Made by a program: the position numbers and the translations under genes
Source: Lytechinus pictus
Lineage: Eukaryota
NCBI RefSeq assembly: GCF_037042905.1
Contig: NC_087252.1
Span: 4,838,001-4,902,000, forward strand
DNA length: 64,000 nucleotides
Reading direction: 5' to 3'
In this document: positions 7,538-45,672 of the stretch, piece by piece
How positions within the stretch are numbered: position 1 is the first letter of the stretch
Layout: the number at the start of each line of letters is the position of its first letter
The notes under the pieces: generated by a model
Told to the model about the DNA's origin: nothing
Databases searched by the model: none
Seen by the model: only the letters and a program-made list of their open reading frames with translations

Positions 7538-9797
7538 AAGGAGATATGTGATCATCCACTTCAAAACCTGAACTATTGGGGCGTAAAAGAAACTTAATGT
7601 TTGATTAAAAGTCAAGATTGGGTGTCGTAAGAAAGATGAGTTGAAGCTGAACACAAAACAATTACAAATTTGAACGTAATCAATTTGAGACTTATGCTTG
7701 ATTGGAATTAAACAAAACTTTCTTGCGATGCCTCTTACATGCAAGTGCACAAGCAAGGTTCTCTGTAAATGGGCATATTAGTCATTTTGAGCTTCAAATT
7801 CAGAATTTAGACGACTAACTTTTGTGGAAAAACAAGTCTTTTTATTTCTGGAATCTAAATAATAATATATGTAGCTGAGAACCTTGGCACCAATAGGTAG
7901 ATAAGCTGTAAATGGGGAAATGTGCAATGGAGAGGAAAATTGATGAGGCGTCCAATGCTATAGGAGTCCACTGGGACAGCGCCAGTTTGTGTAATGCGAA
8001 GCGGCTGTGGAGCCTACATGTAGTGTTACCCAGCCAGAAGGTGCCTAGTTGCATGCAGTTGCTCAAAATGGCTCCTAACAGCGACAAAATTTCACAAAAA
8101 ATAAATTTGGCGTGACAAAAATTTCAAACATCTCGTTGAATTTTTGGCACCACCAGTTGGGGGGGGGGGCAGTTACATGTAGAGCCACTGCACGTCACTA
8201 CGCGCCACAGCTGCTTTGAATTGGTGCGAATTGGCCCGAGCCCATTGGACTCCGAGCATAACGTGTCAAACTACTTGACCGTCCATCATCACTCTTGTGG
8301 ATGGCTCACTAACTTGTGATGTTTGAACACGTCGACAACAACACAGCTCTTTCCAGGACCAACATAAACTCAAGAAGAAACAACACTAAGTTCAGTCAAT
8401 TAACTCATAATACAATTGCAGGATGTTAAATCATTATCATTAAACCATTATAATTGAAGTTTTCATGATTTATATGGTTATATTCACAGTTTGGCTAATT
8501 ATGTATCACATGATTATTTTTATAAAAATACACTATTGGTCTGTTTGTATACATCGTTACTCAATCTTTTTTAAGAATTGCAAAAAGCATACTACAATAT
8601 ACTTGTTTAATAAAACATCAATATATCATTTTGATAAATATTTAATAATTACACATTATTGGTTTATTTAGTATTCTCTGTTTGCTGGTGTTTGTAAGCC
8701 AATAACTAGGCTTTGGTAGAGTTACCTATAAATCTCTCGTGTGTACATGTTAGTGGTGCTTTTCAGGATTCTAATATTGATATTCATATTATCATTAAAC
8801 AAAATTCTTATACAGAGACTATTGGAGCAGTTGGTCATGAATAAAAAATGACGAATGCAAAAAAATTATTTACTGTGTACATTAAAATTTGCATTTTGAA
8901 AATAAATTAACCCTTTCTAAAACAAGGCACAAAAATAAGTACAAGGTGAATTTCAGATTAATAGGCATCTGCATCCTAAATCAAACATACAAACCTACAT
9001 TATTTATGATAGCTTAAAGGCTTGAAGTACTGATTTTTTCCAGAAAGTGCAAAATAATTAAGAAGTAAATACATCCATCTCCTTGTTAAAGGCATTTATT
9101 TTAATTCCTCATTGAATTAAAATTAAATCTCTGCACGCTCCACCCGTCAGAATATTTGCACCATAAGCACATATTACTTCTATGAATCTTCCATCACACA
9201 TGCTGTACCAGTTGAAACCTTCTTAAAAGACATTTAGTCCACTTTTGTCCAATGACACAGGCTTGGACCAATGTACCATAAGATACCCTCATCCTTATTT
9301 TTTTTCTCACCTTAACATGACAGTGGTTGACACCGTAAGCACCATCAGTTTATATACCTCACTAAATCCCCAATATCAGCCTCTTGAAGTATGTCTTTGA
9401 GCTAACCGCTTGTTTGTCTTCCACTGTGCAAAGCTGTACCTTGTAGCTCTCTGGGGGTACCTGCATGTTGCACCAGCTGACACCGATGTGCTGCTTGAAA
9501 CACCATCAGTATGTATACCTGACTAAATCCCCAATCTCAGCCTCTTGACGTATAACTTAGAGCTCTTCCATATCACCACCGGTTGTCTTTCACGGTGCAA
9601 AGCAGTACCTCATAGTTCTCTGAGGGACACTGCATGTTGCATCGGTTTAAACCGTTGCATCGGTTGAAACCATGTACCATCAGTATATATACCTCACTAA
9701 ATCCCCAATCTCAGCCTCTTGAAGTACATGTCTTTGTGCTCTTCTATATCTTCTATATACTGCTTGAAATCGTTGCATCGGTTGAAACCATGTACCA

Positions 9798-10056
9798 TCA
9801 GTATATATACTTCACTAAATCCCCAATCTCAGCCTCTTGAAGTATATCTTTGAGTTCTTCCATATCACCACCTGTTTTTGTCTTCCACTGGGCAAAGCAG
9901 TACCTCATAGCTCTTTGGTAGTCCCTGTTAAACCTATCTGCGATTCCTTCAGCTTCGTTGAACCCAATACCAAGGTTGATACACAACGTTGTGTAGGCAT
10001 CAACAGGTACGTATTTGGCTAGTCTGTCCAGTATTGCGTCCGCTTTCAGATCAGAC
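9798..10056 (-). CDS. Novel gene terminal coding exon: death domain
   Basis: DAILDRLAKYVPVDAYTTLCINLGIGFNEAEGIADRFNRDYQRAMRYCFAQWKTKTGGDMEELKDILQEAEIGDLVKYIY* fits the six-helix death-fold pattern (LxxLA..LxxxLG..W..LxxxLxx). Confidence 0.88.
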
Positions 10057-13000
10057 CTACAAAAGGATGATATGCATTTTGGCTTAAAAGACGTTTAATA
10101 CAATGGCTTGTGTTATCATCATCATCATCATCATCAAAGTTATAAATCCATTCCCCTCCCCCCCCCCAAGAACGGGGATGGCCGGATTCACCTCACACTT
10201 GCAGCAATCACCTTTACCCCCCCCCCCCCCCCTCTGAACTCAAGATCAATTTACACTCTGGTCTAAAGTTGTGGTTTATTTGTGGAGAGTCAGATGTTGC
10301 ATAAACCTGACATTGCTGACTAAATCTATCAGCTCATTTTACACTCGAATCATTTGTACCTCTCTGGAAATGATTTTAAAAAATAAGTTCTTTTCATCAT
10401 GAGAGTATGAGAAAACAAGATTCAGGACATACACTAGTGAAATGCAAAAGCGTCTCTTGAAAAGACATACTGTACCTCTGTGAGCTAATAAAGAATAAGC
10501 CCTTTTAAAAAATGAATGGATGAAATGATGCTTCTGATAAGACACCTGGGGCCCATTGCATAGAAGTTACTATACTAACATCCACTGGTAACTACCATGG
10601 TAAAAATGGACAACAGCCAATCAAAATCAAGGATTCCATGCAAGTTACCGCTGGATGGCAAAGTTACCATAATGGTAACTTGTGCAACAGGGTACTGGGG
10701 AGCCTATAATCTAAGCAGAGGCTGCAACTCATTTATGAGGTAAATCTTTAACATAACAAATACATCTTATTTGCCGAGACTATAAACACTGGCTTCTGAG
10801 CAGTCGTCTATTCCTTCTCATCTAGCTTTAGTCATGGTTTTCTTTATAATCAATGAAAGTCCCGTGGCAGTTTTTCACACAAAAAAAATCAGCCTGGCTC
10901 ATAGTCAATACAAATAAAATGGCTGCTATTAAAACAGATGGTATAGGCAATGGTTATTTCACAACCACTGTTTGTATTCTCTCCAGAGCAGAGACACCTC
11001 TTAAATTAGCTTATGAGATAAGTAGCTACAGCCTCCGTCCGCCTTGATTACAGCCTAACATCAGGGTGGAATTTTCATTCAAACTTACTCTGCAGGTGTT
11101 GCTGCAGCTGCTACCATTGCAGCAGTGGTTGCTGTAGTCAAAGCTGTTGCTGGTGTCGTTGTTATTGCTGATGTCATTGCTGCTGGTTTTGCTCTTGCTA
11201 CTTTCGTTGATGCTGCTGCCGTAGTAGTTGCCGGATCTTTAGTCAAGAAGGAAAGAATTACATTGAAGATATTCAATGATAAGTCCAAAAGTCTGATGTC
11301 AGTCAAGCATTTTTATGGTAGAGCTGCATAAACCCACCTTTTTAATGTCTAGATATATCCACTCTATCAGTTGTGGGTTGGTCTATATGGAGGTTCACTT
11401 ATCAGTTTTGCTTCTTTACATTTTTTTTTCTTCATTGATTAAGATTGCATTATTATTTTCCTCAGTAATTTATAACAGGCAGCAAATTGAACGCTTGGAA
11501 ATACCTGCTTTAAGCGCCATACAAATGTTATAATAATAATTATTATTATAGAATGGTATCATAGTATATAATAATTGCTGGAGATTGTTTGGTCCGAGAA
11601 CAAGTCATCAATCATCTTATTAAAGTTGTGCGTAACTAATGAACAGCATTATGAAACTGACCCCTGTGATTCTTAAAGAGGAAATTCACCCTGGCAATAT
11701 TAAAGTTGGTTTAATAAAAGCAGAAAACTTTGAGCAAAACTATTGGTAAAGACTTGATGAAAATCCATGAAAGAATATGATGACTCTTAAAACATTGTCA
11801 ATTTGTGACATCATATGCGAGCAGCTCCCCCATATATCATGTAATTTAAATTGAGTATGATGAATAAATATATTTTCTTACAGAAGGGGGTACAAAATGA
11901 TCCCACTGATGTTATATCCCCAGCACAAATAAAATGACTTTCAATCTTTAGAGAAAATAACACTTTGGGGAATTTACATCACACAACAGATATGGAGGAG
12001 CCGCTCGTCTGTGGCATCCTACGAAAAAAAAAAAAAAACTGTTATTCTTTGACGGATTTCCATCAAACCATCAGCAAAATTTTGCACTAATTTTGCTGAT
12101 TCTATTTAAACCAACTTATTGTCAGGATGACCTTCCCTGAAAACAGGACATGGAGCACGCACTACGTACCATCATATGGCAAGATGAATCGAAGCATCGT
12201 AGGAGATGATGAGAGTGATCTGACTTGTTTTAACTTGAATCTAAAGAACCTCTGACTTGGGTCCGTCACTGATGACATGACATCGAAGGTAAGTTGTCTT
12301 CTATCAAGTCGTTGAAAATCTTGTTCATCTACATGCTACTTGAAAGAGAAAATAAACATTGATTTGAGCACTACCAGAGATGGTTTATTTTCAGTTGGTC
12401 TTATGCCAATTCGTCAAATTCCAACTCGTCTATTAGCATTTGGTCTACCATCAGTTCGTCCCATTTCCACATGGTCTAATAGCCATTTCGACCACTCACC
12501 ATTTCGTCTAATAACCAGTTGGTCCGATAGCCATTTAGTCCATATAGCATTTGGTCTAATTAGACTAAGTGTTAATTGTTAATTGGGCAAAATGAATGAA
12601 AATAAAACGGATATTAGACCAACTGGTTATGAGACAATATGGTCATAGACAAAATGGTGATTAGACAAAGTGATGATTGGACCAAATAGTTATTGGACCA
12701 AATCTTGGAAATCTACATGCTATTTGATGCTACCCTTCTTCAACAAAATATATTCATGGAAAAAAAAAAAATTTCCAACTGGAGCAACTGCCAACCTGTA
12801 GCTGTCGTATGAAATTAAAAAAAAGAAAGATGCAATATGGCCAGAGCTATCTACGCATCTGGTTACTGTAAAAATTGAGCATACACTTAAGAATAATATA
12901 ATGCATATCAATTCTAACAACTGCTTATCTGCTCCCATTCTTTTCTCTGCATTCTTAATGCACATATATTTTGTGTTATTGCTTTTATTATATTCAGTTT

Positions 13001-16000
13001 TCATTTTAATCTATTTTTCAAAATAATCACCATCTTTTCATGTACCAAAATAACAGAGCAGTTGTACCAGTATGACATCACACATTTTGTTGCATTGCCA
13101 ATTGAAAAACATCCATACTATTATTGGTCTCAACATTCAAGTGCTTAAGTTTTTTCCCCAAAATTTGTCAGAGTTTCATTGAATAGTTTCTTCCATTTAT
13201 CTGTTTTCTATCCGTTTACTGGTTTCATAAATTTTGCTTTCAATAAATATCGTACGTACCGCCTCGTCAATTCTCTTTTCATTATCCTTCGGGCCATCTA
13301 ACAGCTCGATGTTGATATCTCCACACTTCCATTCTATGAACATGGGTTGGGGAGGAAACAGCTTTCTGTATTCTGACATTTCTTCTTTTACTTTCTGTAT
13401 ATTGGTGGGGGAGGGAGTGGTGGTGAAGAGACAAAAAAACAGTTGAAAATAAAGTCACCCCTTCAGCACACCTTGAGCATGTCAATAAAGCAGATGAAAA
13501 ATCAATTATAAAACACTCTCCAGGGCTACTTTTTGAGCTCAACAGCCAGGGAAAAAAAATACCTGGATGCTTGGGGCAATTAGCCCCCAAACACTCAAAA
13601 GAGCCCCCCCCCCATCCCCATTCACTGCCATGTTAAAGCTTATTCAATTCAGCAGATTTAGACAGTAGGTTGTGAAAAGTGAAAAATTAATATTTGCTAC
13701 GTTGTATTACACTATACATTGGCCTCTTCATGAATTTTAAAGGGTTCCTTTTCAGTTTTCCTAGGGGGGGGTGTTTCACAAAGAATTTTGTATGACTTAT
13801 AGAGTCGCGCTTAAATACCGATACGCACGTGATATGTTACGCGTAATCTTCATGATAAATATGCAGTTGCGCACGTCCGCTTAATATTAACTGCCTTTTA
13901 TACCACGCGTAACTTGGAATTTAAGTGCGACTCTTGGTCATATTTAATCTTTGTGTAACACCCCCTACCCCCCCCCCCCCGCTTTTTCGGGGCATGTCTA
14001 GGGCAAACTAACCCAAAGACCTGTGTAATTTTTTTCCCTGCAAAAGATGAAGGTCTTGAATAGATGGAATATGGTGGAACAATTCATATCACTCCTGAAA
14101 ATAAAGACATACGTATCGTATAATAAAAAAAGAACAAGTCTCAAACAAACAAAAACATAGCACAAACTCATGACATCATTCATTATGATGCCAGGACTCA
14201 CTTAATTTGATGTCTTTATGATTTAAATTATGCCTTGAGTTTGTATGCAAAGCTTTATTGTCTGTCTGAATTTGTACAAACTTTGTTCAAACGTTCGCCT
14301 TTCTGCTCCACTAATTTTCATGCTTTCTTTCATTTCTTTCTCATTTCGTTAAAAAAATAATCCAATCATTTATTTTGCTGCCTCTAACGTTACCTTAATT
14401 ACTTCTGTAAGGTCATCATACAAGCAGAGAAGCATAATATGAGAGAAACCCTTTCTTGCAGGTGGGCGAAAGAATGGCGTGCAATTGATCCTCTTCCCAA
14501 TAAAATAGCGGGTGAAAACAGCGACGATCCACCACTCTGAGAAATGATCGACAAAGAAATCCAAGTCCTTAGTCCTGACCTCACAACGTGGATAACCGTT
14601 GACAGATGAAGGGATTCTTTCAAAAGGTTCCAAATCTACAAGCATGTTAGTAGAAAAATGATAACAATTGTCAACAAGATTAACTGATGAACGATGACAA
14701 AAAAATTTACGTGGAACAGAAGTTAACTGTAAAATCAGTATCATAGTAATGAATATTAATTCAAGCAAAAATAATTACATTTTTTCATGAAAATGCTTTA
14801 CGGGTTGCATATCAGGCCATCCCATATATACTGTACTTAGACTATTATAAAAGTGAAATATATTTTTAGAAATAAAATATTTCAAGCATGGCAATTGGTC
14901 ACAACCTGTCAGCTAAGATGTAACCAATTCCACTAAGTAAAAAAAAAGTGGTACTGTAAAACCAAGCATATTGGCGCTATCCAGAAGATGAAAAAAAGCA
15001 CCAAAATTGTACTTTAAAGGCTTTTTGAAGACTCATGGTTTCAGTGTTATTTTATATAACAAATAATGCACTGCTGTCATTGGCAATGCAGCGAAAGCTG
15101 TGTTTCAGATGGTGCACATTTGGCAATCGCCTGCAGCACCCATCTCCCTGTGCCCTGCTTTTCCACTCAAGCTCTCAGTTCTATGTATTATTGTTATAAT
15201 AATAAAGTACTTATCACTCTTACCATTGCTGCGTGTGTAGAAGACAATTTCTGCACGCGTTGGATGAGAGAAATATGCATTGTGGTCCAATGTGACCTTG
15301 AGAGGTTTGCTGAGTTTAGCACCGGATGGTGAGAATTTGACCCCTGATGAAATAATTGCTTCATTCTCTTGGAGGACCAGCTCTCGGGGAGTGTCTGTTA
15401 TGAATTCCCATTGAGCTTCATTAACATCTGAAATATACATTGTCGGAGAAAGAGGAAAAATTATATTTATATAAAGTTTATTATTACGAGCACCATTGTC
15501 ATCTTCACTGTCACCTTGATGAAGACCATATTATGATCATTATCATCAAGAAAATCATGATTGCAATCATACCTACCACACAAGACAAGCATCTAATATG
15601 CATTTGTATAACCCTCGCACACTGTTGGCTCACAAATCTATCAGACTTTATGGACCTGATGTTTGGAATTCGATACCTACTAGTACTAGGAATATATTAT
15701 CAGTGCATTCCTTCAAAAGTGCGGTAAAACGCATACTTGTCTCTAAGATGTAATTTTGTTGTACTGTATATTTTAAACTTAAATATTGATATAATTTCAA
15801 TTATTATTACGCCTCACACACTCCTTGTAAATATTTGTAAATAGTTGTGGAACATAATAATTTGTTATTTGGTTTTCTTTCTTTGTTTGTTAGTTGTTTT
15901 TTTTTCTTTCCCCTCTTTGTGTAATCGTATTGTTTTTATATTCATGTATGTATTTCATATATCCAAAGGTCTGACAACAGCTCAAGCATCTGCTTATTTT

Positions 16001-19000
16001 GTCATACCACTGCATGTCTGCAACCTTGTTATAATCAGTTATGTTATGTTAATCATCATAATCATACATTAGTATCATGTAAAATTTAATGTAATCAATT
16101 TTGTGATGGTCACACTATGTACATTGTCATGACATGCAGAAACAAATAAATAAATAAAATTAAAAAAAATAACTTAGAAATTGTTTATGGATCTAGTTCA
16201 CGAAACGTGGACATACATGTAGGGTAATCAAGTATCACTGATCGTTCTGCATGAATATTAGGTCATGATCAATGTCGAATTAAGGGTCAATGAATGTAGT
16301 ATTTTATATAAATGATATGTGAATGGTGTTTTTTTGTGAATAATTATTCAAAGTCAGCACTGTTGCTATATTGAATCGCGTAATGCAGGCGAGACAGCCA
16401 GAGGCATTCCACTTGTTTATAAACATTATAAATATCTTTATTTTCCACCCAAGTATCTTTTGCTTTATCCCGCCATTTCCAAAACGTACCAAGTTTAAAA
16501 ATCCTTGTGCCATCAATGCCTCCGAAATGTCAGCTTTGCAGATGTGGTTTTTTTTTAGGAAGACTTCTAAATCATTAAATCCACTATCCCTCCCGGAAAT
16601 AAATGTACTAATAGATTGAGGACATTATATGAGACTTTCTTTTCTTTCCGCCTACGTCTATTTACTCTTTGATCAATTGATTGTGCTCATTTCTTATTAA
16701 TGCAGGGGATTTCCCCTCACTTTTCTCATACTATTTCTATTTCTATTCTTAAAATTAGAAAAATACAATAGAGCCTATTGAGGATATATATTGAACCTGA
16801 ACTATAAATACTTTTAGATTTTTTTTCCATTTTAAATACTTTAAGAAAAAACTTTCAATTGCCCATGGTTAAAATCCCAATTTATTACCAAAGCTTTGCT
16901 TTGTAATAAGTCCCTCATTTTAATTTTCATAATGAACTATGACCTGTAATTTTTAATTATCAAAACGTGTTTTGAAACTACGATTTACTTATCTACCGAT
17001 CACTCTTGTTTATTATTTGTAACTGAAGTATCTATTTATGACGTTTATTCTGCTTTATGTATTATGTATCATACATGTTTGTTGTTATGTTTATTATCTG
17101 AATATGAAAATAATCACCATCATCTTCATTATCATCACTAACACCATCTCCATCATCATCATCATCATCTCCATCTCCATCATCACCATCATCATCATCA
17201 TCACCACCACCATCTCAATCACCATCGTCATCATCATCATTATCTCCATCTCCATCATCAGCATCATCATCACCATCACCATCATCATTATCTCCATCAT
17301 CATCATCACCATCACCATCTCCATCATCATCACCATCACCATTGTCACCATCATCACTATCACCATCTCCATCATCATCATCATCTTCATCATCACCATC
17401 ATCATCATCATCACCATCACCATCATCATCATCATGAGCGTAGTGGTTTCGAAGTACACCATGTATTTTAATGTGGGCATATGTTGGTCCTGAAAAAGTC
17501 TTTTTCTTCTCAGATGGTAATTAAGAACAGTCGGAACATAAAGTTTGGGTGAAACCACTACTCTTCTTCGCCATGGAAACCTTCAGAAGTTACATCATCA
17601 TCATGATCATCATTGCCATCCTTACCATCATCATAATCTTTACCATTATCATCATAATCATCATCAACATCCTCACAATCACCGTGATTTTGACCATCAA
17701 CCTAATTCATAAATTTTTATGTAAATGATTTTTTTAAATCAATAGAACACATCTATCCCCCAAATTCCTGTGAGAAATACTCACCAATACGTCCTCTTTC
17801 TACCTCTGTATTTCTTCTCTGATTTGCTCTCCTTTCTTCTCTCTGACTTGTGAACAGTAGCCACTGAACCATTAAATATGTTACCATATGCATGACACAC
17901 TTCTGGATTGGCAGACCATAGAAAACTTTCACCAAGAAAAGGAGCGAGAAATTCTCTGTTGATGTTTCGATAGAAGCAAACTGATCAATCAAGTCATCAA
18001 GGCTGTATCCCTCTGTCTTTCTATTGTCTGACCAGATTTTGTAACGGTAGTAGAGATACATCAATAGACCTACGTCCTCTACACCTAATTGTGGTGTAAG
18101 AGCTGATCTGCCTTTTCCCGGTACACTGGATAGTGGTGTAAGAAACCCTCGTCTTATTACAGTTTGTTCATCGCCGAGCTGTCGTAATGCAAGTGAAACC
18201 CTTGCCAACCTGATCAAAATTAAATATGTAAAGAAAATTCTGTGATTAAACTATGAAAACTAAAACTTATAATTTAAATTCAATGAGGGATAGGAAAGAT
18301 CATTTGAAAGGCATTTTATACAAAATAGAGGAAATTCATGGCATTGAAATCTATGCAAACCTGCTAAACATTCAATAATGCAGATTAATTGGACTATTAT
18401 CAACCAGGACTATCAATGGGTCTCTGTACCGTTTGTCTCTATTCAGTAGATGTTGAATAAGCAATGTTTACAGCTGTGACAAGAGCAGAACAGTAGAAGT
18501 AGGTTTAAGGATCCTCTGGACTATATTCAACCACTACTTACTGCCTACATCTGCAGCATTTGATAAGCTTAACATTGCAATGAATGGGGATTTCCAGGGT
18601 TACTTTTGGAGTTTTCAGGGTTCTTTTTAGCATTTCTGGGCTGATTTCGCCCTGAGCCCTTGTGTAATTTTTCCGTTATCAACTTACATTTTCAATTCTG
18701 ACAATTTGACTCAAGTTTGTTAGATTGTTGATTGGTCTATACATGTACCTGCTTTGTCTTATTTCAGTTTGGTCTCATCCCACATGATCTTATCCTAGTT
18801 TGTCTAAAACCAGTTTTTCAAATAACCACTTGGTGTAACAAAAATACTAATAGAACATTTACCATTTATCTGACTTTCACTTAGGCCATCATTCTGTCTA
18901 ATATCCACATGATCTAACACAACTTAATCTGAATGGTTTACAAATCAAATTGAAGATGAAGTGTACAAAAGATCAACTGGCCAGTTGACTAAATGACAAT

Positions 19001-21535
19001 TAGACTAAGTGGCTTTTTGACAGAGAGCAATGTAGACCAAATGGCAATTAGAACAAATTAATAATAATAATAATAACGCAGTTCTTGTATAGCGCATATA
19101 ACATTATGTCATAACGTCCCTATGCGCTTCCAAAGGACTTGGATATTATAATATAATAGTAGACCAAATGTGTTTAACCCATGTTGTATTAAGATTGCTT
19201 GAGTAGTAGACCAAGGGCATAATGTATAAAACTAAATTTAACCAGTAATTTATCAAAAATCACATTTTACACTTAACCGTTTATTCTCATCTTTTATACA
19301 AATATACTCCATCTGGTAATAAATTCAAACTTGAATCTCTTGCCAATATCATACAGGATTAATTATGACATGCTTTACCACCAGCAGGAATTTAAAGCTA
19401 TAAATCAACCAGTATTTTTATTCAGAAGTCTTGTTTAACTTTATAAGCAAAGGTCTAAGTTGTGTTAAGGCTATTGAAAGATGAAATGATGAAGAAACTT
19501 ACTTCATTTATGAATGATCTGAGTGTCAAGTGAGCTGATATATTAAATCTACATTAAAAATTTGTTTCACAATAAGCCAGTTCGTAGTTCCATTCTGCGC
19601 ATGATCAGAAGATTCTGCGCATGATCAGAGGAAGGTCATTGGTACTAAAGTGCATGGTGGTTTAAAATTTAATGAGATAAGCACCAACTTTGATTTCTTG
19701 ATTATTCAGTTATTCTTTTGAATTGTGTTTTTCATTCACATCCACAAAGAACAACAATGCGTCCACGAACGATATTGGTATGGTATTTTACAGTTTGTCA
19801 AGTACATTGTACAGCATGCTATAATATGCATTCAGAGTAGAAATACAACAAATACCTTCATGGAGTCTTCACTGGTGTGCTATTCTAGTCACCTGGTATA
19901 ATTCAATTTCTTCATCCTGCTATGTAAGGCATGCATACATAATATCTTGCTTTGAAATCTGCCTATCATAATGAAATAAATGCAAGGTCATTTGACCAAA
20001 ATTGTCCATGAAGTAACTACGAACTGGTCAATTGGCCAGCCACAGTTAAACCACATCTTTAGACCAGAGTCTGAATTAAAACTTAGTATAGATAGAATAC
20101 AAGCTACTTGAAGGGAAAGTTCACCCTGACACTAAGTTGGATCTAAAAGCTATTTTTTTGGTGAATGTTTTATGAAAATCCATACATGTATCAATAATCA
20201 GAGTTAAGAATTTCTAAAATTACTAGCATGTGATGGCATATGCGAGCAGCTCCCCAATATATCATGTAACATAATTTTTTTTTTTTTTAGGAAGGGGTAT
20301 GAAATGATAATACAGTCGCCTAAAAAGTAAAATCACTTTCAACTTTTATATAAAATTGCATTTTTCAGGATTTACATTACCCAACATATAGAGGAGAATA
20401 TTAATCTATGATATCACAAAATCAAAACTTTAAAAATTAATACAATTTTGTTTGGTCTTTTTCAACAGACTTTAATCAAACATCCACCAATACTTTTATT
20501 GAATTTTCTTTCATTAAAACCAACTTATCATGATGAACTTCTTCTTTAATACATTCTTTATGATATAATTATTTACTCTTGATTCTCTATTGGTCCTTGA
20601 TCCACAGGCAAATCTAGAGATGTATCACTTCCTTCTTCCAAAGTACTTTCTGAAAAGATATTGATATCCATTTGACCAATCATATTTCATTCCCCATCAA
20701 TGACCCATTTCATAAAACTTGTTATTGCATTAACAGTATAAAGCTACTGAAATCATTCAATATGATTGGCTGATTGTAATCTTGCTACAGAAATTGTGCA
20801 TTTGTTATTATAAAAATCTTTATGAAACACCCTGGGGGGGGGGGGGCACTTCCATTGATGAGTGGATACCATGTGTGACCATGGGGTCTCGAAAAGCACC
20901 CTAAACACGTATTTTCCATATTCTGAAAATGCACCCCTTAACAAGTATTGGCGTGTGAAACCCTACCCTTAACAAGTATTAGAAACAAAACAATACTCTT
21001 GGCAAGATTCCCTGAATTGACCCCCTAAACAAGTACAATGATATTTTTATTGTTACAGTATGTGCACTGTCGTCGGTTTTACCTGATTGGGCTTAGTACA
21101 GCCCCTGCACCTCCCACATCTCGTGCAAAATCATCGTGCCAACTAATCCCAGTAAATTACCATTGACCATTGAATTACATACAAATAGTAATTAATTTTA
21201 AATTGAAAAATAGTGCCCCCATTGCCCCCCCCCCCCATCCAAAAATATAATTCATATATTCTTTTGATTTTTCTTTGTCCAAATGCAAGTTCTGCAAGAA
21301 TATTTCCTACTTCCTCAGTAATTAACATGGACTACTTTAAAATTGGCAAGTATGGTGGTTGTGGTTAGATGTCTTCTTGTCTCTAAACATAGTTGCAAGA
21401 ACGCTACCTACCTCCTTGGTCTTTAAGACGTTCATATAAGAATTGCTGAAATAAATCCTCTCCTTTTACTTCTTGTTTCAAATTTCTTTCGAGTGTGAGT
21501 TCTCCTCTTGGCTCAGATGGTTCTTTTCCAGCCAT
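9798..21535 (-). CDS. Putative ~591-aa protein: Bcl-2-like (BH3) domain + ZU5/UPA-like region + death domain. Coding exons (minus strand): 21535-21412, 20649-20577, 18209-17785, 15427-15224, 14635-14394, 13394-13260, 12335-12170, 11236-11089, 10056-9798
   Basis: Nine exons with GT-AG boundaries join in phase into one stop-free 1776-nt ORF. The ATG has good context (aaaccATGg) and an in-frame TAG just upstream. Motifs: LARVSLALRQLGDE (BH3), SSGVKFSPSGAKLSKPLKVTLDH and FVDHFSEWW (ZU5-like), C-terminal death-domain pattern. Confidence 0.82.
11089..11236 (-). CDS. Novel gene coding exon 8: Ala/Thr-rich linker
   Basis: DPATTTAAASTKVARAKPAAMTSAITTTPATALTTATTAAMVAAAATPAE; phase 1-to-2 fits the neighbours; donor GA|gtaagt. 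Confidence 0.75.
12170..12335 (-). CDS. Novel gene coding exon 7 (UPA-like, beta-rich)
   Basis: HVDEQDFQRLDRRQLTFDVMSSVTDPSQRFFRFKLKQV..LRFILPYD; acceptor ctctttcaagtag|, donor G|gtacgt. Confidence 0.78.
13260..13394 (-). CDS. Novel gene coding exon 6 (UPA-like)
   Basis: KVKEEMSEYRKLFPPQPMFIEWKCGDINIELLDGPKDNEKRIDEA; 135 nt, phase 0-0, GT-AG. Confidence 0.8.
13762..13966. mobile_element. MITE, same family as 41035-41245
   Basis: ggggtgtttcacaaagaa...atctttgtgtaacacccc with a similar interior. Confidence 0.75.
14394..14635 (-). CDS. Novel gene coding exon 5: end of ZU5 region with HFS motif, start of UPA-like domain
   Basis: DLDFFVDHFSEWWIVAV..MLLCLYDDLTEVIK; cttgtag| acceptor, AAG|gtaacg donor. 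An alternative in-phase donor at 14403 is possible. Confidence 0.85.
15224..15427 (-). CDS. Novel gene coding exon 4: ZU5-like segment
   Basis: ENEAIISSGVKFSPSGAKLSKPLKVTLDHNA matches the ZU5 'SPVVxxGPxGxxFxKPVxLxLPH' pattern; phase 1-1. Confidence 0.85.
17110..17435. repeat. (CAT/CAC)n trinucleotide tract
   Basis: Direct inspection; intronic. Confidence 0.92.
17785..18209 (-). CDS. Novel gene coding exon 3: BH3 motif plus degenerate Bcl-2 core helices
   Basis: 425-nt open exon within ORF 17753..18217; tttgatcag| acceptor and G|gtgagt donor. LRQLGDE is at 18187-18167. Confidence 0.78.
20577..20649 (-). CDS. Novel gene coding exon 2: acidic loop (E)STLEEGSDTSLDLPVDQGPIENQ(E)
   Basis: 73-nt exon, tcttttcag|...GA|gtaaat. 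Its phase 1-to-2 boundaries bridge the flanking exons exactly. Confidence 0.72.
20830..21140. mobile_element. Truncated copy of the 55961-56510 element
   Basis: Reverse-complement similarity; the ORF track gives near-identical spurious 'MLRGAFSEYG..' peptides at both sites. Confidence 0.8.
21412..21535 (-). CDS. Novel gene coding exon 1: MAGKEPSEPRGELTLERNLKQEVKGEDLFQQFLYERLKDQG (resembles alpha1/BH4 helix of BAX/BAK)
   Basis: Acceptor ttcattttcag (AG at 21559-21558), ATG at 21535, donor G|gtaggt (phase 1). Confidence 0.75.
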
Positions 21536-22247
21536 GGTTTGGGTATACTTCTAGGACCTGAAAATGAACAGAATAACTTGAAAAATGATTCCAAATTCAA
21601 ATCATCAACTTTCTAATCATAAATCAGGTCAGAAAGGTTGATCATTGACAGATTTCTCAATAACTAATCACTGATTTTGAAAAGTTTGGAAAAAAAGATA
21701 AATCATTATGTCGCCAGGGTGTTCAAACCTTATCTCAAATTTAATAAAAACAGAGTAATAAGGGCAGTTCGATCAGAACAAGCTTGAAGTGAGGTTGCCA
21801 ATATTCCAATATTTTTAAAAACAAGCTTTTTTCTGAGCTTTTTGATAATACAACCATGTTTTTTTTATAATAATTTTTCTATTTTCATCCAATTCTTTCT
21901 CTTGATAGGGTGGACCTTTCTGTACCTAGCAGCTCATTAACTTTGTGACAGTATCAGTAGTTAATTTTGGTGTGGAAATGACCAACTACGAACAACAATA
22001 ACAACGTTTAACATGTTTAAGTTTACTCAAAGTCTCAAATACTAATTGTCGATACTCAAGCTCTGCTCACAAGCTCTATGGGCATGGAACATGAAAACAA
22101 GGTTGAAGTGGTGAAATGACTTGACCTTGACCCACATGACACAAAAGGTGAAAGTAAACTGACAATACCTATCCCTGGTATCATAATTATCTGCAATTTT
22201 GCATGATTTCAGAAGAAAAAAACCCAAACTGGCATTATATTTGTTAA

Positions 22248-22842
22248 AGGACAAGTCCACCCCTACAAAATGTTGATTTTAATAAAAAGAGAAAAATCCA
22301 TCAAGCATAACACTGAAAATTTCATCAAAATCGGAAGTAAAATAAGAAAATTATGACATTTAAAATTTTGCTTAAGTTTACAATTTTTTATAGGTCTATG
22401 CACATCTCTGTTGGTATGCAAATGAGGGAACTAAATAATGATATCACTCACTCACTATTTCTTTTGTATTTTATTATATGAAATATAAAATATTTTAATT
22501 TTCTCCTCCTTATCCTGTGAAACAAAGTTTTATTCCTCCCTGATCATGTGGAATTACCATTGTTTAACATTTTATGGTTCAGTCAAGTTGGTCCTTATTT
22601 TCAAATCTGTAAGTGTAAAAAGTTAAATATTGTATAATTCAAACAATAAAAAACAAAATAAATAATGAGTGACATCGATTCTTTCATTTGCATGTGACTA
22701 AATTTTGCATGTAGGCCTAACTATTTTGTGAAAAATAAGCGAAACTTTAAATGTCACAACTTTCTTATCTTACATCTGAAAAAGATGCTTGTCTGATTTT
22801 TCTCTATTGATTCAACTCAATTTTCTGAGATGGACTTGACCT
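22248..22842. mobile_element. Non-autonomous DNA transposon, TTAA TSD, AG..CT termini (Kolobok-like)
   Basis: ttaa|aggacaagtccac...tggacttgacct|ttaa; homologous to 45673-46258 and 58042-59429. Confidence 0.8.
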
Positions 22843-23209
22843 TTAATTTGTTGACCCTGACCTACCCTTGGCCTGACTCACTTAGCAGCCATGCCCACCA
22901 TGTTAATTTTCTCTGTGAAGATTTCCAACTTTCAAACATGCAATTGATCATTTAAAACTTAAGTTAAGCCAAACAACAGTAGGATGGGGGGTCGGGTGTC
23001 CGGACACTTTATATTTTTGAAGCCTTCTTTTTTGTCTTTGGATTACACTAAAAATACGAATTCAATAGTTGTAATTATCTTCTATTTTGTTTTCTATAAT
23101 ACCGGGTATTTCCTAACATTTTGTACTAAAAATTGATAAACCTTCCCTTGTAAATTTTTCCAAATGACTTCCTAAAATTGATCGTCCGGACACACAACCT
23201 GTCCGGACA

Positions 23210-23506
23210 TAGTCTTGAGGACGCAATGATGACTTTTTAAATACCGTCATATACTTCTTCATCATTGACGTCTTGACACTCTCTCCATAGTCTCATAAGA
23301 GAAGGTCCAAAACAAAGATGGATTTCGCTCGGAAATCCATCTTTTAAAACATAAATGAATTTAAATTTATGAATTTTATTGATTTCTACACCTTCCTACA
23401 CCTAATGCGTAGGAAGGTTTAAAAAAATCTACGGTAAAAATGATACAATGATGAAGAAGTATATGACAGTATTTAAAAAGTCATCATCATTGCGTCCTCA
23501 AGACTA
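23210..23506. repeat. Foldback inverted repeat (~58-bp arms) with internal hairpins; probable MITE
   Basis: tagtcttgaggacgcaatgatg..cttcttcatcattg (23210-23267) versus caatgatgaagaag..cattgcgtcctcaagacta (23446-23506). Confidence 0.8.
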
Positions 23507-23977
23507 ACTTAGTCCGGACACACAACAACTGGGTAGGCCTTGGGCCTAAAATTAATGGAGAAGTGAACCAGTGACAGTAGTGTCCTGTACTGTACTGTCA
23601 TGACTGTAGTGAAGTTCAAACTTCAAGTTCGACGCTGACCCACCAGGACATGATCCGGCCAACCTAAAACGTAAAGAGAAAGAATTTGGAACTGAATACA
23701 GAGTCATAATGACTTCGTTCAGTATATTCCCTAAGTATCCTAAGTAAGAAATGTAACTAGGAGTCCAAGGACTGAGTCACAGCTCAGGCTCAGCCAGGCA
23801 TGGCAGTTTGGCACAGCAGCTGAGAGCGGATACGGTGTGTGTCGTCGAGCGGACTCATACTGGAAACCACGCCGGTCAACACGGCGCGGCCGGGGTCTAA
23901 ATTAGGCCTAAAAGAAAAAAAACTACCACAACCTATAGCTATACCCGGTCCCCCCAAAAAAACAATCCATAACTCAC

Positions 23978-24140
23978 GAAGAGAAGAACAATCCCCTGAC
24001 AATGTTCCGATTATTGTGGTTCTTTTACAAGTAGGTTTTCTCGCTAGAAATGTATGTACCGAACAGGATCTAGGTCCATGATCTCACCCAAAACAGAAGA
24101 TCAGCGAAACAGAAGGGAGAAGATCGGTTATGAAGCGCCG
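23978..24140 (-). other. Probable non-coding first exon/promoter region of the BH3-ZU5-DD gene
   Basis: Donor-like ttc|gtgagt at 23977, local CpG enrichment at 23800-23900 and a CRE-like TGACGTGA at 24185-24192. The TSS cannot be determined. Confidence 0.35.
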
Positions 24141-27100
24141 TTTGAACTTTTAATTAAAAATAATTAATAGAATCGTAATGAATATGACGTGACCATTATC
24201 TATTGAAACTGCAAAATTCATTATTTATACTCAATAATCGGAGAAGCGAGCTAAATAAAGAATTGTAATTATGCAAAAAGTTATGATAAATGCATGTAAT
24301 CTGAAAATGGCGACCCATAGATGTGGGGCAACTATAAATAAAGGTAGGGTAATAAAGAACAGGCGGGGTTCTTGTTATTTCTTGCCTCATTTATTTGTTA
24401 TCTAAGAATCTACTTTCTTTTCTGTTTTAAATTATTTTCTTTTTCATAGCTTCTTTGTCTGCATGTTTCCCAAGTTTCTTCCTCCCTTTCTTTCTTTCTT
24501 TCTCTTTCTTTCTCTCTCCCTCCCCCTCTCTTTATTTTTCTCCCTTCCTTCCCATCTTTCTTGGAGAGCTGGCTCTGAAAGCTTGAATTCCTTTGACGAG
24601 CCCTTGGCTCAGTCAGCCCAGCCTTGCACAAAACACTCTGTTCACGAGTCTCACCCCTATACATCCATACAAGAAGAAAATAGAAACTGAATATTTGCTG
24701 GTTACATAATTGGTTTATTAGAATAAAGAATGACAATACTGGGTGAAATCTGACCAAGTCTGAAACATTGGTCATCAAGGGTATTTTTTTTTTCATATAT
24801 GAAAAGTACTTGAAAGTTGGACAATGAATATCACAGTATGAACATAATGGGAAAACAAAATGTTAAATCGAATTCATATCACTCACACTGCGCAAGCAAT
24901 GCTTAATTGTTATCGTTTCAAGGAATACATTTCTTTCAAAGACAGAAATATTGAGATTCATAAAATGCTACATTATCTATCTTCCAAGCAACTTTATAAG
25001 TGAATGAAATTGTAACTAATGTGTAAGAGTTATTGGGTAATTTATGGGACCATACTGAAATTGTACTCCCTAGGGAATGGAGAATGAGTGGGTACATCCG
25101 ATTAAATACCCTGACCAAGGTAATAATGAATCAGACAATCTTAGAACAATTATTATGCCTCAAAAGCTATAAGAAATCTTACTTGTGCAATAATAATCGA
25201 GATATAGCATTGTAATTGATTGGGAATGTTACTCAAATTCAAAACTACCCTGTCTGAGAATATACAAATCAATACATTGACTTTCTAGACAGGACAAAAT
25301 ACATAAAGAAAGAGGGGGGAAAAGTGCAATTTGCATGAATGTCACCACCAATAACTTTGGTAGATAAAAATAATTAGATACTGAATGGCCTGATTCGAAC
25401 AGGGAAATAGATTTTACTATTGCCTAAAAAAAAATGATAAGTATATAAAACAAATATCGACTGTTGTTTTTAATTATTCGCATTTGGATACTATCGGGGG
25501 TGGGGGGGGGGGGACTGGCTGATATTTTAAAATATTGTCAACAGGACAGTTAAAACAATATAAAGGAAAGTTATTTTTAAAGATCTTTTGACAAAACATA
25601 TATTACAAATCTTCACACTTGTCAGTGCAATGTTTAAAGTTTGGCATGTAGACCTTTACAGATATCTCGAACAACTCAATAATGAACCAGCTTTTGATAA
25701 TTTTGCATTTTTTTTCCTTACGATTTTTATATTTTTTTCAAAACTTGTCACTCCCAGAGTAATGACACACCACACCATGTTTTATCAGTTTGAAATCATA
25801 ATTCTATCATCCTTCTGTTTAAATTTTAGTGACCAGTAAAAGTCATTCTCCATTTCAGAATGTTCAACATCCTTGAAATTGTGATTATGACTCGAACTTG
25901 TGGATCCAAAAGCTTCCTCCATACATCTACTCATGTCCTAAGAACATTACCGGGTAACACTTTCTTTAGAAGTTAATGATGGTATGTACTTAGAGTTATA
26001 CAAAATACCTGACTTGTACAGTCATAAAGTCAACTGCAAAAAGTTATTAGTATGGAGACAGTATATATGTTCCCCTTAATTAGAAAATAAAAATATTCTA
26101 GTTAGATTTGATCAACATGGTGCAGTATGTGAATACTCTGGTTATGATTATGAAACTTAAAACACTATTTTTGACACTTGAACAAAGATAAAATCCAACA
26201 TTGGGCATGGTTACAAAAAATGATCACTTCATATAACATCACAGAATTAGTAAACCAAAAGCTTTAGCCGAGTGATGATTTACTCGTTTATGGAACTCTT
26301 CCTTAAAAACATTGAAGACAAGATGGTTGCTCAGCACTCAAGCTGAATGTCAATGACACCAAAGTACTGTTATCATACATGAAGTGACCATTTTTAGAAC
26401 TCCAGTGAACCATGGCAAGGTAATGCATTCTATGGAATGTGTTAAGGCTTGCATTGAGTCAAGGTCTAGTAACACAAAGTATAGCAATGATCGTAGAACA
26501 ATATCTATGACTGATTGCATTGACTACAATGTTCAATCAATCATAAAAATCAAGCATATAATTATCAATTGCCTGTGTTGCTGGCCCCACGTTAGCCAGG
26601 ACTCCAGAATAGCGGAACAAACCGTTGCCTGAACCACTCCAGTAAATGCTAAACCTTGCCTTGATACAATGTATACCATAATCTGCCCAGAAGGAAAACA
26701 TTTGTAGGACTTTGTCTCTCATTCTAAAGGCATTCTAGTCAGCGCGGTGAAGCCCGGACAGTTATGCCTTGGGATTAAAAGACAAGTTCTAAGACCATCC
26801 TTACAGAACCCTTTTGATTCCAGCTATAAGGTGAAATATTCTTGAAATAAAAAAAGTCAGCAGAAATCGTGTGGCGTCTCAATCATTGCAAATACTTCCA
26901 TTTCAGCACAAATCATATAAATCTACAATCAGATTGATATAGACCAAGAAGGTAATATTTATGCTTTGATATGAATAAGTGTTGGAAATTTTTTGTATTA
27001 TATTTATCAGCCTTGTCATCCAATGAAAAACAACTGTACTACAATAACATGTAAGAAAGGGTATTCAGATACCAAGATTTTCACCTTTTAACCGGAACTT

Positions 27101-34021: not shown

Positions 34022-44205
<10,184 letters not shown>

Positions 44206-45672
44206 GGCAAACAGTGTCTTTTTTCACAGTATTTGTTCTCCCTTTTTGCAAATTCTTCCAAGTTCCACCCTTATCGATGGGTGATTTTAGACTTTCCTTG
44301 TATTACGTCTCTTTAATAATCATCAATGAAAATTGCATCAGGTGTCCATACGAACATTTCAGTTAAAGATAAGATAATTCCTGAGATAACTTGTCAGAAA
44401 TGTAGTAGTACAGGTTCACAAAAAAAGGCAAGTTAGTGCCATTCAACTTTGCCCATACAAAATGGGAAAAAATTATCTTTGGCAAATATACAAATATACA
44501 TTAATATATAAAACGACCTTTACAAATAATATATTCTGCTATAAACAATGAAGCCTCTCAGAGAGGCGTCACAAGGAATTTGAATTATAAATTCAGATTG
44601 TCCGCTTGGTAGGAAGGAATCAAGCAGCAATACAAATGGCTAAGGACCCGCAGAAGTTTTGAACTTCTCGTGCGGAGAGTCTATAAAGGTGATAGATCAC
44701 TGTTCAAGCTTGCAGCGTTCACTCACATGTGTGTATAGCTCAATGACGTTTGCATAAATCTGGTAGAATCATAAGTTCAAAGGAAAGAATGTAAAGTTGT
44801 CCAAACGCTATCCTGACTATCGCAGGAATGCCATCAAACCAGCTTCTCTGTAAAATGAAATAGAGAGAACAGAAACTTTCAATAAACCAAAGGAGGGTTT
44901 AGTGAATAAACATCACATGATTAGCATTTAATTTCTACTCTCCAAACCATTATTTCCTGTTCACGAAATTGGACCACCACCTGACATGCTACCAATATAA
45001 TTGTCTATTTTTAATTGCATTGTTCATTTTCAACTTCAGTCTTGAATTCTGAACTCATATTTAAATTCAACCCTGCTTTAAAGTTGTGGTTTAACTATGG
45101 ATAGCCAATTGGGGCACAACTCCCTAACAGTACACATTCAATTCATTAAACTTATTTGACACTCAAATTGTCCATTATTGTCTGGGAATGATAACTGAAG
45201 TAGTTTGAAGTATAAAGGAAACAAAATAGTAAACATACAAAATATACAATATAAACAGAATTTTTGGCTACTCATAATTTTCGCTGAGTTAGACCGTGGT
45301 CTAAATCAAACCTGCCATCAGAATACGAGCATTGAGATGTATTGCCACGTTTCATTTTAACGGCCATGATTTGACATGGCACATCGCACGTTAAAAAGTG
45401 AATGTGTGCAAGAGCAGCTGAATTGCGGTGCACGGAGATGCAGCAGCTATTCACTCCCAAAACCCCTTTCGAATGAAGGCAACCCTGAAGAATTGATTAC
45501 GGTATACATGTGTATTTAGAATCTGTGAATTCAATGCTGTTGACTTATTCTGTAGTTTGTTTGGATTTACAAGGCATCTTGAAGATACAAAAATTGTTTG
45601 CAAACTCAGAATCAAACCACTATTTTTATTTTGTTTCTAGCACTTTTTTGCAACCCCATTTCTTAAATTTAA

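What the first reader, a model, noticed from the sequence alone, without database searches (positions are those of the whole stretch)
9798..21535. Single gene fusing a Bcl-2-family (BAX/BAK/BID-like, BH3) domain to a PIDD/UNC5-type ZU5-UPA-death-domain module
Seen: nine minus-strand exons splice in phase into a ~591-aa ORF, and the first two exons are absent from the ORF track. Residues ~25-41 (GEDLFQQFLYERLKDQG) are followed by an acidic loop, then L67-ARVSLA-L74-RQ-L77-GDE, then helical/hydrophobic sequence. A ZU5-like region, a UPA-like region, an Ala/Thr linker and a terminal death domain follow. Established: LxxxGD(E) is the BH3 signature; BAX and BAK begin with a similar alpha1 helix, loop and BH3; ZU5-UPA-DD is the signalling supramodule of PIDD1, UNC5 receptors and ankyrins; in mammals PIDDosome-activated caspase-2 cleaves the BH3 protein BID. 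Inference: this protein could combine the death-domain platform and the mitochondrial BH3 trigger in one chain. I know of no described protein with this architecture, but I cannot search to confirm novelty.
Basis: partly seen in the sequence, partly recalled or inferred. Interest (0 to 1): 0.9.

Follow-up and report, generated by a model that had tools for sequence, protein, structure and literature searches.

The report
Sea urchin BH3 plus death-domain fusion
This is a real, spliced sea urchin gene that joins a Bcl-2-like cell-death trigger helix (BH3) to a probably self-cleaving death-domain module, a combination I could not find described; whether the trigger helix works is untested.

Summary
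The gene is real. Nine GT-AG exons give a 591-aa protein identical to RefSeq XP_063959486.1 (Lytechinus pictus, 'uncharacterized'). A public contig matches exon 3 edge to edge and is exactly as long (1,562 nt) as a spliced exon 3-9 piece. Residues 208-591 are a ZU5-UPA-death-domain module of an expanded sea urchin family whose members carry swapped N-termini (ankyrin, DED, DD), not a PIDD or UNC5 orthologue. Residues 24-81 (alpha1 plus BH3) match a profile of this genome's nine Bcl-2 genes weakly but above chance (0 of 3000 shuffles, 2 of 3000 block shuffles), and the BH3 docks canonically in an urchin Bcl-2-like groove (0.77 versus 0.02; possibly from memory). Residues 85-205 show no Bcl-2 signal: no NWGR, no GGW, and the folds were uninformative. 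So a BH3-bearing fusion is likely; a whole Bcl-2 domain is unproven. It is single-copy and was seen only in this species and one close relative.

The parts
21412..21535 (-). Exon 1 (aa 1-41); holds the BH4-like alpha1 helix (aa 25-40, about 21463-21416)
   Evidence: alpha1 aligns to profile positions 6-25 of the genome's own Bcl-2 family; stranded RNA depth 1.61 versus 0 in bin 21370-21613
20577..20649 (-). Exon 2 (aa 42-66): acidic loop with Asp50, Asp54 and Asp58; possible caspase sites (inference only)
   Evidence: both RefSeq isoforms X1 and X2 reproduced
17785..18209 (-). Exon 3 (aa 66-208): BH3 helix, then orphan helical sequence; no BH1 or BH2 signature
   Evidence: contigs of two organisms match exactly 17785-18209; single copy
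18164..18208 (-). BH3 motif, L67-Q81, with L74, L77, G78 and D79
   Evidence: modelled with G78/D79 against N86-W87-G88-R89 of the genome's own Bcl-2-like protein
17852..17950 (-). Moderately hydrophobic helices, aa 153-185, followed by a basic stretch; buried hairpin or membrane contact (unresolved)
   Evidence: Kyte-Doolittle 19-mer maximum 1.46 (P0004) and 1.76 (P0002); helices in low-confidence models
15224..15427 (-). Exon 4 (aa 208-276): N-terminally truncated ZU5; starts the phase-1 to phase-1 ZU5-UPA cassette (exons 4-7)
   Evidence: Pfam ZU5 E 6.6e-5, profile 47-90 of 97; truncation shared with sea urchin relatives
14394..14635 (-). Exon 5 (aa 276-356): end of ZU5 and start of UPA
14538..14546 (-). 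H306-F307/S308, a PIDD/Nup98-type autoproteolysis motif
   Evidence: HFS in 19 of 31 aligned family rows and HFC in 3 more; meaning of the motif from PMC3210808
13260..13394 (-). Exon 6 (aa 357-401), UPA
12170..12335 (-). Exon 7 (aa 402-457), end of UPA
11089..11236 (-). Exon 8 (aa 457-506), Ala/Thr linker
9798..10056 (-). Exon 9 coding part (aa 506-591): death domain and stop
   Evidence: no Pfam Death hit on its own; relatives matched over this stretch hit Pfam Death; the family profile hits Fas, TNFR1, FADD and PIDD death domains weakly, E 0.004-0.24
9320..9780 (-). Three decayed tandem copies of the end of the death-domain exon, behind the stop codon

Best explanation
An exon-shuffled cell-death adaptor. 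Exons 1-3 descend from a Bcl-2-family gene (BAK/BAX-like alpha1, loop, BH3; the rest diverged beyond recognition). They were joined through a phase-1 intron to a mobile truncated-ZU5-UPA cassette and a death domain. MODELLED: the BH3 fits a prosurvival Bcl-2 groove. INFERRED: the chain cleaves itself at F307/S308 as PIDD1, CARD8 and NLRP1 do. The C piece (UPA-DD) then recruits a death-domain adaptor and an initiator caspase, and the N piece, perhaps after a caspase cut in the acidic loop, exposes the BH3 to occupy prosurvival Bcl-2 proteins and lower the threshold for mitochondrial apoptosis. My odds by step: one gene 0.97; alpha1+BH3 Bcl-2-derived 0.8; BH3 binds in vivo 0.5; self-cleavage despite the truncated ZU5 0.55; whole Bcl-2 fold kept 0.4.
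For: Model equals RefSeq X1 and X2. Contig X1 record 1 matches 17785-18209 with 0 differences at its positions 1-425 and is 1,562 nt long; the spliced exon 3-9 sequence up to its first repeated 31-mer is 1,562 nt. A profile of nine own-genome Bcl-2 genes, built without the query, scores aa 24-81 at 8.1 bits: reached by 0 of 3000 shuffles, 2 of 3000 block shuffles and 0 of 316 natural slices. The intron before the BH3 is phase 2, one codon from the phase-2 intron before the BH3 of this genome's BAK. Complex model: 0.77 against best control 0.02; runs agree in at least 94% of contacts; partner pLDDT at least 72; the mark was reached by 51 of 78 solved and 2 of 108 mismatched microbial pairs, and by 39 of 65 solved and 2 of 126 unrelated eukaryotic pairs; contacts are canonical (D79 with R89 of NWGR). 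L74, L77, G78 and D79 are kept in the 86%-identical second version P0002. Exons 4-7 begin and end in phase 1, and relatives attach the same cassette at the same residue to DED, DD or ankyrin sequence.
Against: The homology is weak: 8.1 bits (4.4 for P0002; 7 and 18 of 3000 shuffles reach that) against 38-100 bits for true members left out of the profile. hhalign probability 3%, P 0.014; best pairwise result 13 of 500 shuffles, for BAX. Residues 85-205 show nothing (2049 of 3000 shuffles score as high). No Pfam, PDB or ESM Atlas hit to any Bcl-2 family. BH3-in-groove complexes are abundant in the PDB, so the pass may come from memory, and peptides were not calibrated. Exon 3 lacks the BAK/BAX introns after alpha4 and after GGW. 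The ZU5 has lost about 30 residues, including the 'HGIxVxIP' hairpin, so cleavage is not assured. The N-terminus diverges faster than the rest (178 of 207 identical versus 318 of 334 in ZU5, UPA and DD), which fits decay as well as selection. Junctions 1-2 and 2-3 were not among the rows displayed.
Confidence: 0.45

Rival explanations
1. Bait (tripwire) sensor, as in NLRP1 and CARD8: the Bcl-2-like N-terminus is not the killer but an integrated decoy. A viral Bcl-2 mimic, a protease or a host Bcl-2 protein binds or cuts it, the N piece is degraded, and the pre-cleaved UPA-DD is freed to assemble and signal.
For: Same ZU5/UPA/death-fold chassis and cleavage motif as CARD8 and NLRP1 (PMC3210808; PMC9213247 abstract start in the listing). 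The family has a constant chassis with swapped N-termini. The N-terminus changes about three times faster than the chassis. BH1 and BH2 are lost while the BH3 is kept.
Against: No dN/dS test was possible: only 9 of 28 differences were listed for organism B. No ligand is known. The truncated ZU5 may not hold the C piece in an inhibited state.
Confidence: 0.2
2. The N-terminus is a decayed relic of a Bcl-2 gene, or a chance look-alike, with no BH3 function. The protein acts only through its death domain, as an adaptor or a dominant-negative decoy among many paralogues, possibly held at a membrane by aa 153-185.
For: Weak scores and no signal beyond aa 85. No fold support. The motif alone occurs in 7 of 142 other proteins. 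No homologue of aa 1-205 beyond the two L. pictus records. RefSeq isoform X3 starts at M116 and lacks the BH3.
Against: alpha1 and BH3 lie in the right order and spacing across three exons. Frame and core residues are kept in P0002, and exon 3 is kept with both edges in organism B. Canonical docking.
Confidence: 0.3
3. Annotation artefact: two neighbouring genes, or a rare read-through, merged into one model.
For: The letters of the contig beyond exon 3 were not displayed, so the join rests on an exact length match. Run X1 is only guessed to be RNA.
Against: Exact match of 1,562 to 1,562; no stop codon in exon 3; exon 4 has no start of its own in the RefSeq models; all RefSeq isoforms and P0002 hold the join; organism B's contig also leaves the genome sequence at 17785 and continues for 151 nt.
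Confidence: 0.03

Closest known systems
PIDD1 (ZU5-ZU5-UPA-DD, cleaves itself at HF/S)
   Same: ZU5-UPA-DD order; HFS at the end of the ZU5 (PMC3210808 passages); weak profile hit to the PIDD death domain (E 0.2)
   Different: No LRRs; one truncated ZU5 instead of two; a BH3-bearing N-terminus; nearest relatives are lineage-expanded sea urchin proteins
CARD8 and NLRP1 (FIIND = ZU5-UPA, plus CARD)
   Same: Variable N-terminus on a self-cleaving ZU5-UPA-death-fold chassis
   Different: Death domain rather than CARD; HFS rather than SFS; no Pfam FIIND hit; no NACHT or LRR
Ankyrin and UNC5 ZU5-UPA-DD supramodule
   Same: Best solved-structure hit is ankyrin-2 4d8o (E 1.7e-10); UNC5B 3g5b E 0.026
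   Different: No ankyrin repeats, no Ig/TSP ectodomain; UNC5B has Leu where the cleaving proteins have Phe (PMC3210808)
BAK and BAX (multi-motif proapoptotic Bcl-2 proteins)
   Same: alpha1 (LFQQFLYERL against LLQHFIVDRF in this genome's BAX), loop, BH3; phase-2 intron just before the BH3 as in this genome's BAK
   Different: No NWGR, no GGW, no terminal anchor; the genome has separate intact BAX and BAK genes
BID
   Same: BH3 behind a long acidic loop and no BH1 or BH2 signature (BID features recalled, not from a call); a link from a death-fold platform to mitochondria, by analogy
   Different: No PF06393 match; BID is reported only from sharks and rays onward (PMC8998228 passages); BID is a free substrate and is not fused to the platform
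Expanded marine-invertebrate death-fold fusion families (Kaur et al. 2021, PMC8195603)
   Same: Constant death-fold core with variable fused domains; that paper lists TRADD-N fusions to Bcl2, FIIND and UPA-ZU5 (passages)
   Different: No TRADD-N here; the passages seen do not describe Bcl-2 or BH3 and ZU5-UPA-DD in one chain; its source-data files were not read

Membership tests
Multi-motif Bcl-2 family (BAX/BAK type) | BH4-like alpha1 helix | tested here: met
   aa 24-40 align to profile positions 6-25; joint alpha1+BH3 score 8.1 bits, 0 of 3000 and 2 of 3000 shuffles; weak
Multi-motif Bcl-2 family (BAX/BAK type) | BH3 motif LxxxGD/E on a helix | tested here: met
   L74-R-Q-L-G-D79-E80, kept in P0002; canonical docking in the model
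Multi-motif Bcl-2 family (BAX/BAK type) | BH1 (NWGR) and BH2 (W..GGW) motifs | tested here: not met
   absent from the sequence; aa 85-205 score -1.6 bits, inside the null; no PF00452 hit
Multi-motif Bcl-2 family (BAX/BAK type) | Bcl-2 helical-bundle fold | tested here: inconclusive
   AlphaFold pLDDT 50.5 and 37.9 with 1 and 2 sequences; searches with these models uninformative
Multi-motif Bcl-2 family (BAX/BAK type) | C-terminal transmembrane anchor | tested here: inconclusive
   internal hydrophobic helices aa 153-185, KD maximum 1.46 and 1.76; not terminal in this chain
BH3-only proteins | BH3 binds the groove of prosurvival Bcl-2 proteins and promotes death | not testable with these tools
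   only a model (0.77 versus 0.02), which may pass by likeness to solved complexes
BID | Pfam BID domain (PF06393) | tested here: inconclusive
   no hit on the protein at E up to 5; the genome search rang nowhere, controls included
ZU5-UPA-DD supramodule proteins | ZU5, UPA and death domain in this order | tested here: met
   Pfam ZU5; family profile against ankyrin-2 covers ZU5, UPA and DD
ZU5-UPA-DD supramodule proteins | Complete ZU5 domain | tested here: not met
   profile positions about 1-46 are missing here and in all 10 closest relatives displayed, and present in the 9 more distant ones displayed
Autoproteolytic ZU5 proteins (PIDD1, CARD8, NLRP1) | HF/S or SF/S motif at the end of the ZU5 | tested here: met
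   H306-F307-S308; HFS in 19 of 31 family rows
Autoproteolytic ZU5 proteins (PIDD1, CARD8, NLRP1) | Actual self-cleavage | not testable with these tools
   needs expression with an S308A control
PIDD1 orthologues | N-terminal LRRs and two ZU5 domains | tested here: not met
   neither found

The most novel reading that the evidence does not exclude
A single-chain 'PIDD plus BID' evolved in sea urchins: a self-cleaving ZU5-UPA-DD platform that carries its own BH3 ligand or bait, with alternative splicing (isoform X3) removing the BH3. It would supply the death-fold-to-mitochondrion link that vertebrates make with BID, in an animal reported to lack BID, and would show that urchin ZU5-UPA-DD proteins are a CARD8/NLRP1-like sensor family with swappable N-termini.
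Probability: 0.35. Interest if true: 0.8.

Novelty: new variant of a known kind. Interest (0 to 1): 0.6.

Why it matters
BID, the known bridge from death-fold caspase platforms to mitochondria, is reported only from jawed vertebrates (PMC8998228, passages). A BH3 fused to a death-domain platform would be an independent solution, in a tractable laboratory urchin, and is testable with a peptide-binding assay and two point mutants. The work also exposes a sea urchin subfamily with a truncated ZU5 that keeps the self-cleavage motif and swaps N-termini, a possible innate-immune sensor family. The limits: single copy, seen only in this species and one close relative, and the Bcl-2 homology covers only about 60 residues.

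Tried and rejected
No result: Pfam on single exons and the whole protein found only ZU5. PDB sequence searches with the protein and with the two-sequence N-terminal profile found no Bcl-2 chain at E up to 10. ESM Atlas gave no usable hit twice. Two AlphaFold models of the N-terminus were too poor to use; Foldseek and VIA searches with them gave only generic helical matches, best Z 5.0, which is no evidence against a Bcl-2 fold. Homologue searches for aa 1-205 found only the two L. pictus records (longer proteins; shorter proteins, 0 of 148 candidates; 1.84 billion representatives, no best stretch in aa 1-188 other than the self hit; metagenomes). Query-built searches against the ORFs of the genome's Bcl-2 loci gave nothing; only the reverse profile search did. 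By-eye alignments of aa 109-185 to BH1, alpha5 and alpha6 of BAK, BAX or BID (BID recalled) had no statistical support and were dropped. Exon 3 as an exonised repeat: single copy by DNA search. No listed holder of the exon-3 words is on record as RNA; this is not used as evidence. In one search the 80% likeness setting let intronic repeats crowd the tables, so junctions 1-2 and 2-3, loose ends and 19 of organism B's 28 differences (any in the BH3 among them) were not displayed; the laid stretch did not include exon 4. No earlier finding of this scan matched. Literature: 0 papers for sea urchin + Bcl-2 + ZU5 + death domain; 4 for BH3 + ZU5 + UPA, none on such a fusion by title and abstract start; 0 for the locus ids; searches listed none on it. 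Robertson et al. 2006 (urchin apoptosis genes; seen only as a citation) and the supplements of PMC8195603 were not read and could bear on novelty.
Full report
1. The observation. Reading the minus strand and splicing nine exons by coordinate gave 1,776 nt, AG/GT at all eight introns, and 591 aa. A search with exon 3 returned two NCBI proteins named as Lytechinus pictus 'uncharacterized'. The cluster holds isoforms X1, X2 and X3 of LOC129272730. My model equals X1 (P0004) exactly, and a 4-nt shift of both splice sites of intron 1 equals X2 exactly. Such a double shift is unlikely in a model without junction reads (inference). X3 starts at M116 and lacks the BH3. Exon 3 is single-copy in the genome by protein and DNA search. 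The gene lies between a beta-ketoacyl synthase gene and a DEAD-box helicase gene.

2. Is it one transcript? I laid four runs on 17710-25000. A contig of run X1 (guessed RNA, organism A) matches 17785-18209 with 0 differences at its positions 1-425 and is 1,562 nt long. The spliced exon 3-9 sequence, read until its first 31-mer that recurs in the window (the decayed copies behind the stop codon), would give a piece of exactly 1,562 nt. The letters beyond exon 3 were not displayed, so this is a length argument, but an exact one. It also leaves no room for a hidden exon in intron 3. A contig of organism B (X5) matches the same exon edge to edge with 28 differences and a 3-nt gap and runs on for 151 nt past the donor. 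Raw stranded reads (X19, about 6 in 100 of the run read) cover the exon 3 and exon 1 bins thinly on one orientation only (2.11 versus 0; 1.61 versus 0), as expected for a minus-strand RNA. Junctions 1-2 and 2-3 were not among the displayed rows; they rest on the RefSeq models and on P0002.

3. The C-terminal module. Pfam finds only ZU5, profile positions about 47-90. phmmer over 1.84 billion representatives gave 142 hits; apart from the self hit, every best stretch starts at aa 189 or later. The genome search gave 74 matches, many to paralogous ZU5/UPA and DD exons. Among the 55 relatives scanned, N-terminal partners include ankyrin repeats, DED, death domains and a B-box; none hit a Bcl-2 family. 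A profile of 31 family members hits ankyrin-2 4d8o (E 1.7e-10, ZU5 through DD), ZO-1 and UNC5B ZU5, and weakly Fas, TNFR1, FADD and PIDD death domains. The protein and its 10 closest displayed relatives lack the first ZU5 strands that 9 more distant ones keep. Eight truncated rows form one side of a branch, 100/100, in a 32-row tree with no rows dropped for length and a midpoint root. Exons 4-7 begin and end in phase 1, the textbook form of a shuffling cassette. H306-F307-S308 sits where PIDD1 and CARD8/NLRP1 cleave themselves (PMC3210808, passages); 19 of 31 rows have HFS and 3 have HFC. Whether a truncated ZU5 still cleaves is unknown.

4. The N-terminus. Library searches see nothing, and no homologue turned up outside the two L. 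pictus records. I therefore collected this genome's own Bcl-2 genes (12 PF00452 matches; exons) and built a profile from nine of them, without the query. It aligns aa 24-81 (alpha1, loop, BH3) at 8.1 bits, reached by 0 of 3000 shuffles, 2 of 3000 block shuffles and 0 of 316 natural slices. P0002 scores 4.4 bits (7, 18 and 0). True members left out score 38-100 bits. Residues 85-205 show no signal (2049 of 3000 shuffles as high); hhalign gives P 0.014 and probability 3%; the best pairwise result is BAX, 13 of 500 shuffles. The intron before the BH3 has the same phase as in this genome's BAK and lies one codon away, but the later BAK introns are absent. AlphaFold models were too poor to judge the fold, and so were the fold searches. 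A complex model of aa 58-92 with the genome's Bcl-2-like protein (L022) scored 0.77 against a best control of 0.02, with at least 94% agreement of contacts and partner pLDDT of at least 72. That mark was reached by 51 of 78 solved and 2 of 108 mismatched microbial pairs, and by 39 of 65 solved and 2 of 126 unrelated eukaryotic pairs. G78 and D79 touch N86-W87-G88-R89, and L74 packs on M92 and F96. BH3-groove complexes are well represented among solved structures, so this shows likeness, not binding. Between P0004 and P0002 the N-terminus is 178 of 207 identical, and ZU5, UPA and DD are 318 of 334 identical; the BH3 core is unchanged. Of the 9 differences displayed for organism B, 5 change a residue and 4 of these agree with P0002.

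5. Mechanism. Most likely (0.45): an exon-shuffled death adaptor that cleaves itself into a BH3-bearing N piece and a UPA-DD C piece, coupling a death-domain/caspase platform to neutralisation of prosurvival Bcl-2 proteins. Cleavage, adaptor recruitment, a caspase cut in the acidic loop and killing are all inferred. Rivals: a non-functional relic or chance motif on a DD adaptor or decoy (0.3); a CARD8/NLRP1-like bait whose loss frees UPA-DD (0.2); a merged gene model (0.03).

6. Comparison and novelty. It is a member of the ZU5-UPA-DD supramodule proteins, in a truncated-ZU5 sea urchin subfamily. It is not a PIDD1 or UNC5 orthologue. It fails the BH1/BH2 test for multi-motif Bcl-2 proteins, though it may work like a BH3-only protein. 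BID is reported only from sharks and rays onward, and candidate echinoderm BH3-only proteins are described as largely disordered (PMC8998228, passages; PMC7022251, passages). Kaur et al. (PMC8195603, passages) describe marine-invertebrate expansions in which TRADD-N is fused to Bcl2 or to UPA-ZU5, so such shuffling is a known kind of event. PMC2246300 (passages) reports novel combinations for Apaf-1 homologues only. No paper found describes BH3 or Bcl-2 with ZU5-UPA-DD in one chain; unread supplements and subscription papers could change that.

7. Verdict. Observation confirmed; interpretation partly supported. New variant of a known kind; interest 0.6, rising to about 0.8 if the BH3 and the self-cleavage both prove functional.

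Noticed in passing
window:9320-9780 (-): Three decayed tandem copies of the 3' end of the death-domain exon lie behind the stop codon.
   Followed up: partly
window:35397-36336: A 66-bp tandem array of about 14 copies (92% matches) inside an intron of the DEAD-box helicase gene, open for 173 and 169 codons on the two strands.
   Followed up: no
window:12380-12700: A roughly 320-bp, partly palindromic interspersed repeat in intron 6 with many genomic copies at 86-89% identity; MITE-like by appearance.
   Followed up: partly
window:4147-6074 (+), 34025-44302 (-), 59559-61128 (+): Neighbouring housekeeping genes: beta-ketoacyl synthase, DEAD-box helicase (DDX6-like, name recalled) and UFC1.
   Followed up: partly
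P0006-P0012, P0035, P0036, P0040: A sea urchin subfamily whose ZU5 lacks its first strands yet mostly keeps HFS or a variant, joined at one fixed exon edge to DED, DD or ankyrin sequence; not found described.
   Followed up: partly
L034:522-7056 and L035 (G000:C21): Two near-identical copies of an unusual Bcl-2-family gene with a 653-codon basic open frame upstream, a BH3 exon and a degenerate BH1 (GMEQ in place of NWGR).
   Followed up: no
G000:C8:33.57-33.92 Mb and C16:24.7-25.7 Mb: Tandem clusters of ZU5-UPA paralogues with full-length ZU5 exons.
   Followed up: no
P0002 versus P0004: The second L. pictus record shares 4 of 5 displayed residue changes and a one-codon insertion in exon 3 with organism B rather than with the window: an old allele, a lost paralogue or a labelling matter.
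   Followed up: partly
window:23566-23809 (-): Minus-strand RNA depth (8.14 versus 0 in run X19) upstream of exon 1, probably a non-coding first exon.
   Followed up: no
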